Assembly: GCF_054482525.1 (NCBI RefSeq) | Contig: NZ_CM137006.1 | DNA length: 64,000 nucleotides | Strand: one strand, 5' to 3' | Part shown: positions 18,001 through 24,000 of the stretch, one piece after another | How the letters are laid out: each line of letters begins with the position of its first letter | Position numbering within the stretch: position 1 is the first letter of the stretch | Made by a program: the position numbers

Positions 18001-21000
18001 CAGACCAGCAGACACGCCACCACCGGCACAGCAAAATCCATCAGGCTTGCCACATCCCATGCACGTGTATCAAAACCGCCCCACCACGGCATATTCATTC
18101 GCTTGCCATGCCCGAACATTTCGATCCAGCGATATTCTGCCTGGGTGTGTTCACGCGCAATGAAGAACGTACAACCGGCTATCGCCCCGTAAGCCCAGTT
18201 CCCGGTAAAAAGACCAATCAGTAGCTGCGCAGCCACAGCACAAAGCGCATGAAGGAAAGGTGTTATATCCATTTTCATCCTACCCAATAAAACGGGGCGC
18301 TCGGCCCCTTAATATTATTTAGACGCAAGCGCCGCATCAATTGCAGATAATCTTTGTCTTAATTCTGCGTTTTCTTCTTCCAGTGCTGTTATTCTGTCGT
18401 CTGACTCTCTGGCTACCTGAACAAGCAAGCCAGTAACACCAGAATAATCAACTGTGTAATAACGTTCACCTTCTTCACCTTCCGATCCGCTTGCACCGTC
18501 CTGATATTTCATTGCGGAACCTACAACTTCTGGGATTGCTTCCAGAGCTTCCTGTGCAATGACTCCAGCATAGGGCATACCGTTTTCTTTAAGCGTGTAT
18601 GTATAGCCGTTCATTTTACGGATGCGGTCGGTTGCATTATCGATCACCTGAATGTTGTCTTTCAGATCCCGGTCGGAATGCTGGTTAAATGCGGTGGCAT
18701 GACATGCACCATTAACGCTTAACATATAGGTGTTATCGGTATTTTTCTGCGCATAGAACATATAAGCGCCACCATCAGCACCAACTTCATATACAACCGG
18801 ACGGGTAGAGTTACCCCACAAACTAGTAGTAGCGCCAGAATGAGCGGTTCCCTGTGTGTTGATTGTCATGGTTGACCCATGATTGGCATATTTGATTTGT
18901 AATGTGTCTGTGCAGTCAAACTTAATAAGCGCGTTACTTCCCCGCACACCATACGACATGAGACAGTTCCCCATCTTAAGGTAACCATCACTGCCTGGAA
19001 AAATTAATGTTCCGCCGTAAAGATCGCTAAAATCCCAAAAGATACCTTTTGTTCCATTGTGTGTGACAATCCTTGTCATTGTATCTTTTGTACCGTCAAT
19101 ATTTTTTCTGGTGTACATCTCACTATAAGCGTTTTCGGTTTCTCCTGTCTTATTTGACAAGTGAATCTTACCGCTAAATATAGTTCCAGTGGTCGGCAAT
19201 GTCTTTTGATTATAGATTACATTGCAATAACTATTCCATGTTGTTTTATTGTCTACATATGATTTTGTTGCGTAGCTTCCTTGATCGTTTTTTAATTTGC
19301 TAACGTCGGATTTTAGCGTTTTGATATCATCAGGAATTACTGTCGATGTAGCCATTTTTCTTCCTCACATCCAGCCACGAAGTTGATGCTCAACAGCAAC
19401 CGCGTATTCATCGAATAATGACGATATTTGCGAATCATTAATGATGCGCACGTTTACAAAATATCCGTCCTCCTTAACACATACCGGCTCGCCATCTTCA
19501 GTAAGTTCTCCGGTTTCTTTGTACACATTACCTATCACGTCAATAAGAATATCATCCTGCATCGACTCGTCATCATAATAGCCAATACTCTCCATAAAGG
19601 CCGAAAAGTCGGCCCTGTCGGCAAATTTGAGTGTTAAATCTTTCATTAGATTGACTCCCCCATCTGAGCATCAGTCAATGCCTTGTGCCATATTCTGAAA
19701 TTCCTGACATGACCAAATAAATGACGCAACCCGGCTGTAGTCTGGCCTCCAATACGGATAATTGCGGTGTTCTGAATATAGGACCATGTGGCTTTCTTTT
19801 CGCTGGATATACGCCCGTTACTTACTGAGCACGTAGACTGATCTGACTTTACACGCATCCCCATAACCATTTTTTCAAGCGATGCGTTTTCGTTTACCCG
19901 TCTGTTAGCCAAACCTATATCGCAATAAGGAAATCCGTCGTAATCTGTTGAACGACCGAAGCCAAGAATAATAGCCGCTCCGGTTTGATGACCGCCGGTA
20001 TCAAAAACACGCGGTGCTGCATTTGGCGTTTTATACCAGTTCTTATGTACCTCACAAAGAACTGTAAAAGGAAGATTATAAAGGTTATTCTTGATTGAGA
20101 CTGTCACCATATCGCTTGCGCGAGTGCTTGCAATTATATCAGTTACAATAAATGACGAAGCACTTGATCCACCTTCCACTTGTGGAGTTGCGATATCCAG
20201 ATAGTCTCCAGATGCTGTGCCTGAACCTTTTACTGGAGCATATTGAACCATCGCACCAATCATGCTCTCTGTATCTAGTGCATTAATTGTAGCCTGATAG
20301 AAAATCTAACCAGTAGCCTCATCTTTTACAGCCTTTGCAATAATACGATTTGCTGCACCACCAGTCTTATCAATTACAAGTGTTGATAAATTGAGGTAAG
20401 CATCTCCCAAAAAAGTGTAAGTAGAACCATCATGATGTTCAAATCTTAAACGACACCTTATATTTTCAACATCACTTCTGACACGGCATGAAATGGTCAC
20501 ATATTTTTCATCACCTGTGACATCAAATCCTTTACTGCCAGAAACCGTTACGATATTAATCGCACTTGTCTGATCAATAAGAGTATCTTTTACAGTAAAT
20601 CTCCCATAAGTAAAATTAAAAGAATCCGTGGATATTTCTGTGAGTTCCAGATTGCCTGACTTATTCCATTTAGATGGATTTGTTGAATTAAGCAGAAGAT
20701 TAGTTCTTTGCCCCTCAATAAGCAGGCCATCACGTTCAAATCGCGGCTCGTCAATGGCAGCCTCTGTCAGTACACCAGATTTATTAATATAGGTTGCTTT
20801 CGATGCGCGTTTAAACTTAACAACCTTGTCACCAGGCATCGTTATTTCATCATCACCAATAACAATCTTTTTATATGATGGCGAAAAGCCCGTAATCATA
20901 TCCAGTGAATCGTTAAACGGTATCCACACATCGGGAAGCGGCTGCAAAACTTGTTTATACGGCTCCGCAGCCTGGCTTGCATACTCTCTGGCTGCGTCTT

Positions 21001-24000
21001 CACTTGCTTTTGCAGCCGTCTGGCTTGCAGCGGATGCTTTCGCCGAGTTAGCCGCCGCAGTCTCGCTCGCCTTTGCGTTGGTTTCACTGGTTTTTGCAGC
21101 TTTTTGACTGTTGGCTGATGCAGTGGCAGAAGAAGCCGCCGCACTTGCAGAACCAGCTGCGGCACTCTCGCTTTGGGCTGCAGCATCCTGACTGTTTTTC
21201 GCCGCAGTTTCACTGGCTTTGGCATTCGTTTCGCTGGTCTTCGCTGCCGTCTGGCTGGACTTTGCGTTAGTTTCACTCGTCTTCGCAGCTTTCTGGCTGT
21301 TAGCCGCAGCAGTTGCTGATCCAGCTGCTGAAGTCGCAGAACCGGCTGCCGCGCTCTCGTTTTGGGCTGCTGCAACCTGGCTGTTTTTTGCCGCAGTTTC
21401 ACTGGCTTTGGCATTCGTTTCGCTGGTCTTCGCTGCCGTCTGGCTGGACTTTGCGTTGGTTTCGCTCGTCTTTGCGGCTGTCTCGCTATTTTTCGCGTTG
21501 GTTTCTGATTTTTTGGCTGCTGCCGCGGAGTTTGCTGATGCAGTCTGTGAGGTCGCTGCCGCCTGTGCACTATTAGCTGCATTCGTTTCTGAGGTTTTCG
21601 CCGCGTTCTTCGATGATGCCGCTGCAGTTTCGGATTTCTTTGCCGCCGCTGCGCTCTGAGAGGCGGCTTCAGCGTTGCGTGCCGCTTCTTCCACCATTTC
21701 CTCAAAACGACGCAATGCCTCCGGCATGACATCATCTTCCGTCATGGCACCGAGAAAATCATTCAGCGTACCTGGTCTGGAACCTTCATAGACGGTAATG
21801 GTCCCGGCATGCGAAGGCGGAAAACCTTCAACCAGCAGGGTGACGCTGTACTGGCCATACTCAACATCCATGCTGTAACGCCCGGCTTCATCAGGATTTT
21901 CAGAGGCCACCGTGTTCACCAGTACCGTGGTGCTGTTACGCTTTGCCTTCAGTTGAATAGTGCAGTTCTGTATTGGTTTTCCCGCACCATCTTTCAGCAC
22001 ACCTGAGATTTTTACTGCTGCCATATCCACTCCACAAAAAAGCCCGCCTGAACCGGCGGGCTGTCATAACACTGTGTTACCTGGCTAATCAGAATTTATA
22101 ACCGACACCCACGATGAAACCGTCAGTGCGCCAGTCACCACTGCCGGAACCTTCATAAGCAAGGTCAATGGCCACGGATTCGGTCGGGTTAAACTGCACG
22201 CCAGCCCCCCACGCCAGAGACGTGTTGCTGTGGCGACCGTCATCACTTCCGGTCAGCACATCGTGCGTTTTCCCCTTGTTGTCAGTTACGCGGAGATAAT
22301 CCCCGGAGAAGGTCGACACACGGCTGTAAGCCATACCCGCCATCGCATAAGCACTGAACCATTCATTCACGCGTACAGATGGCCCCGCCATCATGCTGAA
22401 CCAGCGGTTACACACTGAATCTTCATGCCAGCGGGTATCGCTGTAATGCGTTTTTTGCTCATCTTTGGCATTGGCATAACTGAATGACGTCACCAGCCCC
22501 AGCGTGTCCGTAAATTCATAACGGTATTTCACGTTAATGCCCTTCAGGTCATCACTGCCTGGCATATCAGTATGGGTCTGAAGATACCCGGCGCTTAGTG
22601 TGGACTGATGCTCTGCTGCGCTCGCTGGCGTACCAGCGGCAACCAGCCAGACTACTGCGGACAGAATAACAGCACATAATTTACGCATAATTACCTCTCG
22701 CTTTTCTGCAATAAAAAAGGCGTCATTTCTGACGCCCGTATTGAGGTTATAAAATTCAGCTGATACTGATGCCTGCGGTGGCTTTCTTCATCACCACAAC
22801 CAGCAAATCGCTGATACTTGCTGTGGGATACCAGTCATTTACCAGCCATGCTGACACCGAAAACTCCAGCGTCATGTGACCGTGACCGGCAGGCATATCA
22901 ATAACGCCACTGTAAATCAGCGTATTATCCAGCGCGGTACGGTTATAAATTTCAGCACCGTTTTTCCGCACTATCAGACGGCATGAGGAGTAAATATCAG
23001 TATGCTCTCTCTCATGTTTAGCGCCGCTGAATGCCACCGCCGGAATAACAATCTGCCGGTCAAACGGCTGATCGTCATAAACCCTGACGGTAATGGTCCC
23101 TGATGGCCACCGTTCCGGTGCACGGGAGTCCCGGGGGAAAGCTTTGCCCACTGTTTTAACGAGATCGCCTTCAATCTGGTTCGCGGACAGTTTTCCCAGA
23201 ACCCGGCAGTTCTCGTTAATCGTGACGTTGTTGAGCGTCCCGGAGTTCGCATTCACGTTACCGCTGATATCGGCATTTTTCGCCGTCAGCCGCCCGTCCG
23301 GTGTCAGGGAAAATGCCGGAGGATTACCGCCGCTGGTAATGGTGGGAGCCGTCAGATATTTCAGGAACACTTCGTTCATGAATATCTGATCGCCCTGACC
23401 AACAAACATCGGCTTTGTGTTGCCATTCGCAGGATTAACCATCGCAATCCTGTCCGCCGCCAGCAGCACCTGACTCTGCATGCCGTCAGGGGTGTTCTCA
23501 ATACCGGCACCAATACCCGCGATATAAAGGCGTCCGTCCTGCATCTGCTGCAGCTTCACAGCCCACATGCTGTTCAGGTTATTATTTGTATCAACCTGAA
23601 CCTTCTGTATCTGCTGAATTGCCGCACTCTGGTCTTCCAGTTTCTTATTGACGGTCTGCGTGATTTCATTGCTGACATCCGTAATGGACGTCCTGATTTC
23701 AGCCAGGTCAGGCGCAAGCTGACCGTTATCAATCTGCGTCCACAGCTCCTGAGCCAGATGGCTTTTCCCTATCTCGCCTTTGAAAAAATCCAGATAGCCG
23801 GATGCATCATCACTCGGCTGGCCAACAGCCTCCACAAATGCCGATTTGCCAACGGTGTTCACACTGCGGATGTAAAAATAATAATCATGGCCCGGTTTGA
23901 TATTGATACTGGCGGCTATCCAGTACAGCGCCGTGCCAAGATAGCGGGCTGTGGTTTCAACCTGCCTGATATCGGTAATCCGCGTTTCCGAGAACCAGAA

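What the first reader, a model, noticed from the sequence alone, without database searches (positions are those of the whole stretch)
19646..22030. Side tail fibre gene stf interrupted by a single in-frame amber codon
The 574-aa Stf N-terminal ORF and the 205-aa distal ORF are in the same frame and separated only by TAG at 20306..20308 and 14 sense codons. Either the prophage has a nonsense-inactivated fibre (as lambda PaPa has a frameshifted stf), or the distal receptor-binding part is expressed separately from the ATG at 20263, or this is a read error. A single-codon lesion in a host-range gene is easy to test.
Basis: seen in the sequence. Interest (0 to 1): 0.45.

Follow-up and report, generated by a model that had tools for sequence, protein, structure and literature searches.

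The report
Amber-truncated prophage side tail fibre gene
A single G-to-A change has turned an invariant tryptophan codon into a stop codon in the side tail fibre gene of an otherwise intact lambda-like prophage of E. coli, an ordinary strain-private knockout comparable to the frameshifted stf of laboratory lambda.

Summary
On the minus strand, a 572-aa ORF (ATG 22024; 574 aa from the GTG at 22030) ends at TAG 20308..20306. Fourteen sense codons follow, then ATG 20263 opens a 205-aa ORF in the same frame.

It is a point nonsense mutation, not a two-gene design. Every fetched relative has one 2379-nt, 792-aa gene with TGG (Trp573) at that codon.
- No complete E. coli genome matches an 81-nt probe carrying TAG at 100% (0 of 175 records).
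- All 18 IMG/VR contigs matching a TAG-or-TGG pattern carry TGG.
- The exact truncated products occur on one 5.1-Mb contig among about 15 billion proteins.

The Trp is invariant in 30 homologues and lies inside one recognised beta-sandwich domain (GTA head-spike-fibre type, residues 435-636). ATG 20263 has no Shine-Dalgarno sequence. No tRNA gene is in the window. All 44 other lambda-type genes tested are full length.

Best reading: a recent, real, strain-private W573amber that removes the distal 220 residues of the fibre. A read error cannot be excluded without reads. Interest is low.

The parts
19646..22024 (-). Ancestral stf gene: 2379 nt, 792 codons plus stop. In this window it is interrupted at codon 573.
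   Evidence: Same length and register as the intact genes in L001-L004, with 18 nt differences to L001. PHROG 1419 matches the intact protein over 2-792 in one stretch.
20306..22024 (-). Proximal ORF: 572 aa from ATG 22024, or 574 aa from GTG 22030, including the TAG. It holds the PF08400 attachment domain (residues 3-132), an Ala/Ser/Thr-rich repeat shaft, and the first two thirds of the beta-sandwich domain.
   Evidence: The exact 572-aa product is P0001 = MHA6353677.1 / WP_458911860.1, found on one contig only.
20306..20308 (-). Amber codon TAG replacing TGG (Trp573). The G-to-A change is at window position 20307 on the coding strand (C-to-T on the + strand).
   Evidence: TGG in L001-L004, in all 18 IMG/VR matches (16 loci), and in phages IdasGreatGrand and ESCO3. 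Trp is invariant in alignment A1.
20264..20305 (-). Fourteen sense codons (IFYQATINALDTES) between the TAG and the next in-frame ATG. They are ordinary coding sequence of the intact gene.
   Evidence: The closest relatives (e.g. L001 and L009) encode the same 14 residues.
19646..20263 (-). Distal 205-aa ORF, equal to residues 588-792 of the intact protein: the last strands of the beta-sandwich domain plus a C-terminal domain. Probably untranslated here.
   Evidence: It matches PHROG 1419 positions 586-793. The SD before its ATG is at background level. The exact product P0016 (MHA6353676.1, ACXYYN_05360) is on one contig only.
20117..20722 (-). Segment encoding the GTA head-spike-fibre-type beta-sandwich domain (residues 435-636), which the TAG cuts at residue 573.
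   Evidence: NCBIfam NF048003, E 3e-17, profile 1-181 of 182. PDB profile hit to the RcGTA head spike fibre 6tb9, E 7e-9. AlphaFold is confident (pLDDT 70-95) for residues about 445-620, with three strands after the Trp.
20096..20098 (-). Second window-private change, P643S (TCA for CCA), downstream of the stop.
   Evidence: Pro in 18 of 18 loci. The column is nearly invariant in A1.
19365..19646 (-). 93-aa gene whose ATG overlaps the stf stop (TAATG). It is a conserved partner of this fibre module.
   Evidence: phrog_1361. Found next to fibre genes in 181 phage records of several lineages. It has its own strong SD (-8.4 kcal/mol). The exact protein is on 162 contigs.
18315..19355 (-). 346-aa tail fibre protein with a C-terminal intramolecular chaperone (Peptidase_S74). 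Probably the terminal receptor-binding piece of the cassette.
   Evidence: Pfam PF13884, E 6e-14. phrog_4563 over the full length. Conserved N-terminus MATSTVIP... with a variable distal part in other phages.
22089..26235 (-). Upstream context: lom (22089..22688) and the central tail fibre gene J (22756..26235). Both are intact.

Best explanation
This is a real, recent, strain-private nonsense mutation in the side tail fibre gene of an otherwise intact DLP12/lambda-type prophage: TGG to TAG, W573amber, one G-to-A transition.

Shown: translation of stf would stop at codon 573, inside a beta-sandwich domain.

Inferred: the product keeps the tail-attachment domain and the shaft. It lacks the last three strands of that domain and the whole C-terminal domain, about 220 residues in all. 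It therefore probably misfolds or gives a non-functional stub. The prophage probably still makes infectious particles through its intact J fibre, but without working side fibres, as laboratory lambda does. The downstream 346-aa fibre may also lose its docking site.
For: - The geometry is as described.
- All fetched relatives have one 792-codon (or, in more distant ones, shorter) gene with TGG at the codon: L001-L004, 18 of 18 IMG/VR matches, and the isolated phages IdasGreatGrand and ESCO3.
- An 81-nt probe with TAG has no 100% match among the 175 matching records from 174 of 5426 complete E. coli genomes. The same probe with TGG matches 32 records at 100%.
- The exact 572-aa and 205-aa products each occur on a single 5,135,068-bp E. 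coli contig among about 15 billion proteins.
- Trp573 is an invariant column in 30 homologues down to about 68% identity.
- The codon lies inside the NF048003 domain, residues 435-636. AlphaFold models this region confidently as all-beta, with strands on both sides of the Trp.
- PHROG 1419 and phrog_5939 span the site in one stretch.
- There is no suppressor tRNA gene in the window.
- The internal ATG has background-level SD pairing and no nearby promoter-like site.
- All 44 other lambda-type genes are full length with no stops. This argues both for a recent event and for a clean assembly.
- A second private, non-conservative change (P643S) lies downstream of the stop. The neighbouring 93-aa and 346-aa proteins are identical to alleles seen on 162 and 36 contigs.
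- Precedent: lambda PaPa's stf frameshift abolishes the side fibres without affecting plaque counts (PMC12617516).
Against: - No reads are available, so a consensus base error at 20307 cannot be excluded.
- No expression or virion data exist. Loss of function of the truncated product is inferred from domain position, not shown.
- The structure model is confident only for residues about 445-620. The C-terminal 170 residues are poorly modelled.
- The evidence for relaxed selection rests on just two private sites.
- For most of the 144 records that match the TGG probe at 95-99% (one to three mismatches), I inferred TGG from one representative (L004) plus the absence of any 100% TAG match. I did not read each sequence.
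Confidence: 0.8

Rival explanations
1. Sequencing or assembly error: the genome really has TGG and the gene is intact.
For: The allele is seen on one contig only and in no other genome or viral contig. That is also what a private error would look like. A second private substitution lies 210 nt away.
Against: - The lesion is a substitution outside any homopolymer, and its context (ACTGGTTAGATTT) contains no GATC or CCWGG motif.
- All 44 other prophage genes are free of stops and frameshifts, so the assembly is not error-ridden.
- The flanking 93-aa and 346-aa proteins are exact matches to common alleles.
Confidence: 0.12
2. The split is functionally tolerated. Ribosomes reinitiate at ATG 20263, 42 nt after the stop, and the 205-aa piece works alone or complements the truncated protein. 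Alternatively, low-level amber readthrough or a host suppressor restores some full-length fibre.
For: - The ATG is close to the stop, so termination-reinitiation is physically possible.
- The distal ORF is still open. Apart from the stop, only one private change separates it from 18 relatives.
- UAG followed by A is not the strongest terminator context in E. coli (own knowledge).
Against: - The internal ATG has no SD (-2.9 kcal/mol, equal to the background of internal ATGs).
- The 205-aa piece would start mid-domain and has no attachment domain.
- No relative has this arrangement.
- No tRNA gene is in the window.
- Suppressors or near-cognate readthrough would rarely insert Trp at an invariant Trp.
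- If the fibre is a trimer, as tail fibres generally are, all three chains would have to be read through.
Confidence: 0.05
3. Natural two-gene architecture (a proximal handle gene plus a separate distal gene) in this phage lineage.
For: PGAP lists two proteins for the source genome. It also annotates the homologous region in fragments in some relatives.
Against: Those fragmented annotations are artefacts. The DNA of L002-L004 is one uninterrupted 2379-nt ORF. Among the 120 listed homologues, single proteins covering 95-100% of the 439-aa distal module predominate, whatever the N-terminal handle. The family profiles span the site.
Confidence: 0.02

Closest known systems
Lambda PaPa stf (the frameshifted side tail fibre gene of laboratory lambda, versus Ur-lambda)
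   Same: A single small lesion in the side tail fibre gene downstream of J and lom in a lambdoid phage whose other morphogenesis genes are intact. The side fibres are accessory: in lambda they speed adsorption 10-30 fold but do not change plaque counts (PMC12617516).
   Different: The lesion here is a nonsense substitution, not a frameshift. The distal half is unrelated to lambda Stf: GTA-spike-fibre-type and a further C-terminal domain instead of the T4 gp37-like tip, and no tfa gene follows. Loss of fibres is not demonstrated here.
Intact orthologues: 'prophage tail fiber N-terminal domain-containing protein', 792 aa (e.g. WP_077251782.1; PHROG 1419)
   Same: About 99% nucleotide identity and the same length, register and neighbours: lom upstream, then the 93-aa and 346-aa genes downstream.
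   Different: The window copy has TAG for TGG at codon 573 and Ser for Pro at 643.
Branched lateral tail fibres LtfA/LtfB of T5-like phages DT57C and DT571/2
   Same: A proximal fibre protein is followed by a second fibre protein that carries a Peptidase_S74 chaperone. An ltfA amber mutant loses the functions of both proteins, and fibre-less mutants arise readily on rough hosts (PMC4728585). This is the behaviour I infer for the window's cassette.
   Different: No sequence link was found. tblastn with the first 60 residues of the 346-aa protein did not hit DT57C or phiEco32. The window's Stf has no S74 domain of its own. A 93-aa gene lies between the two fibre genes. Docking of the 346-aa protein on Stf is inferred only.
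RcGTA head spike fibre (Rcc01080, PDB 6tb9)
   Same: The interrupted domain is homologous by profile (E 7e-9; NF048003).
   Different: Here the domain sits within the distal half of a siphophage side tail fibre, not on a capsid vertex. Its ligand is unknown.

Membership tests
Lambdoid side tail fibre (Stf-type) | N-terminal 'prophage tail fibre N-terminal' domain (PF08400) | tested here: met
   PF08400, E 5e-67, residues 3-132 of the intact orthologue. This part of the window sequence is uninterrupted.
Lambdoid side tail fibre (Stf-type) | Gene position downstream of J and lom in a lambda-type late operon | tested here: met
   J at 22756..26235, lom at 22089..22688, then stf. Full lambda-type head and tail gene order.
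Lambdoid side tail fibre (Stf-type) | Followed by a Tfa-type tail fibre assembly gene, as in lambda stf-tfa | tested here: not met
   The downstream genes are a 93-aa phrog_1361 protein and a 346-aa fibre with Peptidase_S74. No Tfa family hit.
Pseudogene by point nonsense mutation | Orthologues carry an uninterrupted gene with a sense codon at the site | tested here: met
   TGG in L001-L004, in 18 of 18 IMG/VR matches, and in two isolated phages.
Pseudogene by point nonsense mutation | The stop falls inside a conserved folded domain, at a conserved residue | tested here: met
   NF048003 spans 435-636. Trp573 is invariant. The region is modelled at high pLDDT, with strands on both sides.
Pseudogene by point nonsense mutation | The full-length protein is absent in vivo | not testable with these tools
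   Needs immunoblot or proteomics of the induced lysogen.
Programmed stop-codon readthrough or suppressor-dependent gene | The stop codon is conserved among relatives | tested here: not met
   0 of 175 records match the TAG probe at 100%. 0 of 18 viral contig matches carry TAG.
Programmed stop-codon readthrough or suppressor-dependent gene | A suppressor tRNA is encoded by the element | tested here: not met
   ARAGORN finds no tRNA gene in the 64-kb window. The rest of the host genome was not available.
Branched LtfA/LtfB lateral fibre (DT57C type) | The second fibre protein has the LtfB / phiEco32 gp15-type N-terminus | tested here: not met
   tblastn of residues 1-60 of the 346-aa protein hits 16 lambdoid, Nonagvirus-type and T1-like phage records, but not DT57C or phiEco32. 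The test was at BLAST sensitivity only.
Branched LtfA/LtfB lateral fibre (DT57C type) | Both fibre proteins end in an autocleaving Peptidase_S74 chaperone | tested here: not met
   Only the 346-aa protein has PF13884. Stf has none.

The most novel reading that the evidence does not exclude
The amber codon is not a dead end. Ribosomes reinitiate at ATG 20263, and the 205-aa fragment completes the cut beta-sandwich of the truncated Stf in trans. Alternatively, a host amber suppressor makes the fibre conditional. Either way the lysogen would produce particles whose side-fibre display depends on translation context. A related unexcluded reading is that the Stf distal module plus the 93-aa protein form the dock for the exchangeable 346-aa fibre, so one stop codon would remove two adhesins at once.
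Probability: 0.04. Interest if true: 0.4.

Novelty: already known. Interest (0 to 1): 0.12.

Why it matters
It matters little beyond this strain. It predicts that phage particles induced from this lysogen lack functional side fibres, and so adsorb more slowly or to fewer O-antigen types than their relatives. It also shows that the two proteins listed for the source genome (WP_458911860.1 and WP_458911879.1) are halves of one disrupted gene and should be flagged as a pseudogene. It is one more natural example of the dispensability of side fibres seen in lambda PaPa and in T5-like phages. It could serve as a ready-made isogenic pair, TAG versus repaired TGG, for studying this widespread but uncharacterised fibre cassette.

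Tried and rejected
1. Phage-encoded suppressor tRNA: none in the window.
2. Natural two-gene architecture: rejected. Relatives that PGAP annotates in fragments (H3, H7, H93) have an uninterrupted 2379-nt ORF.
3. P0005, a 574-aa cluster member on 6 contigs, looked like a possible second TAG allele. It is an N-terminally cut contig-end fragment that contains TGWIFYQ.
4. Internal promoter or SD for the 205-aa ORF: no promoter-like site nearby, with site counts at the shuffle level. SD pairing is at background.
5. The look-up of encoding contigs for the exact 572-aa product returned nothing, so I could not retrieve the source record or its metadata.
6. The source genome is not in the complete-genome collection. 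The best match to the fibre region is 98.9%, and the best near-full-length matches to the chromosomal flank are 97.3%.
7. The Foldseek PDB search with the half-confident model gave only weak hits (TM 0.3 or less): phage baseplate fibres, CBM6/CBM22 and legume lectins. I use this only as a hint of a lectin-like beta-sandwich.
8. A link to DT57C LtfB or phiEco32 gp15 was not found.
9. PADLOC on the three non-lambda genes at 47.7-51.0 kb: no hits.
10. A literature search for the phage name IdasGreatGrand found no papers.
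Full report
**Observation**

On the minus strand, the ORF list and a direct translation of 19646..22030 show one reading frame with a single internal stop.
- The proximal ORF ends ...AKAVKDEATG, then TAG at 20308..20306.
- Fourteen sense codons follow (IFYQATINALDTES).
- ATG at 20263 then opens 205 codons that run to TAA at 19648..19646.

The 574-aa figure counts from a GTG at 22030. The ATG at 22024 is the start used in relatives. It has a GGAG Shine-Dalgarno sequence, and the 572-aa product from it is the one recorded for the source genome.

**What the lesion is**

Megablast of the region against 5426 complete E. coli genomes found 181 genomes that cover at least 80% of it, the best at 98.9% identity.

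In the closest one (L001), lom is followed by one 2379-nt gene for a 792-aa 'prophage tail fiber N-terminal domain-containing protein'. Then come the same 93-aa and 346-aa genes. The window's gene has the same length and register. It differs from L001 at 18 nucleotides, one of which changes TGG (Trp573) to TAG. This is a G-to-A transition at window position 20307 on the coding strand.

Three relatives that PGAP annotates as fragments or pseudogenes (L002, L003, L004) nevertheless contain an uninterrupted 2379-nt ORF with TGG. Those annotations are artefacts, not evidence for a split gene.

**How private the allele is**

- An 81-nt probe centred on the codon and carrying TAG has no 100% match among 175 records.
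- The same probe with TGG matches 32 records at 100% and 144 at 95-99% identity, that is one to three mismatches.
- A representative of the 144-record group (L004) has TGG plus a nearby Ala-to-Val change.
- A scan of IMG/VR with a pattern that allows A or G at the site returned 18 matches, all TGG.
- The exact 572-aa and 205-aa products each occur on one contig of 5,135,068 bp (E. coli; MHA6353677.1 and MHA6353676.1) among about 15 billion proteins.
- By contrast, the neighbouring 93-aa and 346-aa proteins are exact matches to alleles on 162 and 36 contigs.
- A 574-aa cluster member that looked like a possible second allele is an N-terminally cut fragment that contains the Trp.

**Where the stop falls in the protein**

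The intact protein has these parts:
- a PF08400 tail-attachment domain, residues 3-132;
- an Ala/Ser/Thr-rich repeat shaft;
- a distal half of about 440 residues.

NCBIfam NF048003 ('phage head spike fiber domain') covers residues 435-636 over essentially the whole profile. A profile of 30 homologues hits the RcGTA head spike fibre structure 6tb9 at E 7e-9.

An AlphaFold model of the repaired distal half is confident (pLDDT 70-95) only for residues about 445-620. There it predicts an all-beta domain. Trp573 (position 220 of the model) sits inside it, with three more strands after it. Foldseek gives only weak lectin- and CBM-like matches.

Trp573 is an invariant column in the 30-sequence alignment, down to about 68% identity. 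It is kept in two isolated phages, IdasGreatGrand (lambdoid) and ESCO3 (Nonagvirus). PHROG 1419 (2-792) and phrog_5939 (368-790) each span the site in one stretch.

In the homologue search, the 439-aa distal module appears on lambdoid, T1-like, T5-like and P2-like N-terminal handles. The listed hits are predominantly single proteins covering 95-100% of the module.

The stop therefore cuts a domain. It does not separate two modules.

**Alternatives to simple truncation**

- No tRNA gene is present in the 64-kb window, so there is no phage-borne suppressor.
- The 20 nt before ATG 20263 pair with the anti-SD at -2.9 kcal/mol. That equals the mean for the 50 ATGs inside the gene (-2.7). Six of the seven real starts nearby pair at -5.9 to -8.4; the capsid gene start pairs at -4.1.
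- No promoter-like site lies nearby, and site counts are at the shuffle level.
- A 205-aa product would begin at the second-last strand of the beta-sandwich and would lack any attachment domain.
- Basal amber readthrough would have to occur in all three chains if the fibre is a trimer, and would rarely insert Trp. This point is inference.

**State of the rest of the prophage**

I compared 44 annotated genes of a syntenic relative (L006) with the window by tblastn. They run from lom and J through the tail and head genes, terminase, lysis, Q, the nin region, O, P, the repressor region, gam, bet, exo and xis.
- 41 of the 44 align over their full length and the other three over nearly all of it.
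- None has an internal stop.

The gene names in L006 (nohD, ybcW, ybcV, bor, rzpD, rusA, ybcO, ninE, ybcN) point to an intact relative of the K-12 defective prophage DLP12. So do three other features:
- an AraC-family gene at 16554..17303, where appY lies in K-12 (the appY and ybcK/ybcL/ybcM names are my assignment from K-12 gene order);
- ompT, placed at 15351..16304 from its match to annotated relatives;
- a ybcM/ybcL/ybcK-like trio at 47668..51017.

The stf amber is the only lesion I found. That points to a recent event. It also shows the assembly is not riddled with errors.

In the distal 1320 nt, only two sites are private to the window against 18 relatives: W573amber and P643S. P643S hits a nearly invariant Pro downstream of the stop. 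Two sites are too few to prove relaxed selection, but they are consistent with it.

**Most likely mechanism**

Shown: a one-base nonsense change at an invariant Trp inside a conserved domain, private to this genome, in a gene that is intact everywhere else.

Inferred:
- Translation ends at codon 573.
- The product keeps the attachment domain and shaft, but has an incomplete beta-sandwich and no C-terminal domain, so it misfolds or forms a non-functional stub.
- Particles remain infectious through J but lack working side fibres. This matches lambda PaPa, whose stf frameshift removes fibres that speed adsorption 10-30 fold without changing plaque counts (PMC12617516).

The cassette is conserved in lambdoid, T1-like and Nonagvirus-type phages, and the 93-aa gene also sits next to fibre genes in T5-like and rV5-like phages. 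It consists of:
- the stf distal module;
- the 93-aa gene;
- a fibre with a conserved MATSTVIP... N-terminus and a variable distal part.

The 346-aa fibre may therefore dock on the part of Stf that is now missing. In that case one stop would remove two adhesins, as an ltfA amber mutation does in DT571/2 (PMC4728585). That link is by analogy only. No sequence relation to LtfB was found.

**Comparison with what is known, and verdict**

The gene belongs to a well-populated family (PHROG 1419; hundreds of E. coli prophages). The phenomenon, a side-fibre gene knocked out by a point lesion in an otherwise functional lambdoid phage, is textbook.

The 'separate expression' option is disfavoured. The 'read error' option stays open at roughly one in eight, because no reads are available.

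Novelty: already known. Interest: low.

Noticed in passing
window 20096..20098 (minus strand): A second change private to this genome in stf: Pro643 to Ser (TCA for CCA), at a Pro present in 18 of 18 related loci and 29 of 29 other alignment rows. It lies downstream of the amber codon. This is consistent with relaxed selection after the knockout, but it is only one site.
   Followed up: partly
L002 1577..3955; L003 1577..3955; L004 824..3202: RefSeq/PGAP annotates the intact 792-codon stf of these genomes as two or three 'incomplete/partial' pseudogene pieces plus a spurious 'phage tail protein'. The DNA has no stop or frameshift, so this is an annotation artefact, perhaps caused by the repeat-rich shaft. 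The opposite error occurs in the source genome, where the truly disrupted gene is listed as two ordinary proteins.
   Followed up: yes
L009 (IMGVR_UViG_2617271071_000008) and L008 (IMGVR_UViG_2740892449_000006): Two of the 18 IMG/VR relatives carry a 1-nt indel in the distal half of the same gene. In L009 it is an extra A in an A-run 92 codons after the Trp. These are either independent frameshift knockouts of this fibre or homopolymer read errors.
   Followed up: partly
window 18315..20722 (minus strand); L025 2577..5767; L026 1700..5142: A conserved three-gene fibre cassette: a lectin-like Stf distal module, a 93-aa protein (phrog_1361) whose start overlaps the stf stop, and a fibre protein with a conserved N-terminus (MATSTVIPDDIKTLK...) and an exchangeable distal part. 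The cassette is seen in lambdoid, T1-like and Nonagvirus-type phages. The 93-aa gene also lies next to fibre genes in T5-like and rV5-like phages. I found no experimental description of how the pieces assemble.
   Followed up: partly
window 47668..51017 (minus strand): Three non-lambda genes lie between the ybcN-like and ren-like genes: an AraC-family regulator (265 aa), a PEBP-family protein (183 aa) and a large serine recombinase (508 aa). This resembles ybcM/ybcL/ybcK of K-12 DLP12. No PADLOC defence hit.
   Followed up: partly
window about 17900..61500: The prophage appears to be a complete, apparently functional relative of the defective K-12 prophage DLP12. It sits next to an AraC-family gene in the appY position (16554..17303) and ompT (15351..16304). 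All 44 lambda-type genes tested are intact.
   Followed up: partly
window 22041..22062 (minus strand): A strong terminator-like hairpin (8 bp, 7 GC, then a T-run) lies between lom and stf, immediately upstream of the stf start. Expression of stf and the downstream fibre genes presumably depends on Q-antiterminated late transcription.
   Followed up: no
window 17979..18287 (minus strand): A 102-aa ORF just downstream of the 346-aa fibre gene. It is annotated as a hypothetical protein at the same position in relatives and has no Pfam hit. Function unknown.
   Followed up: no
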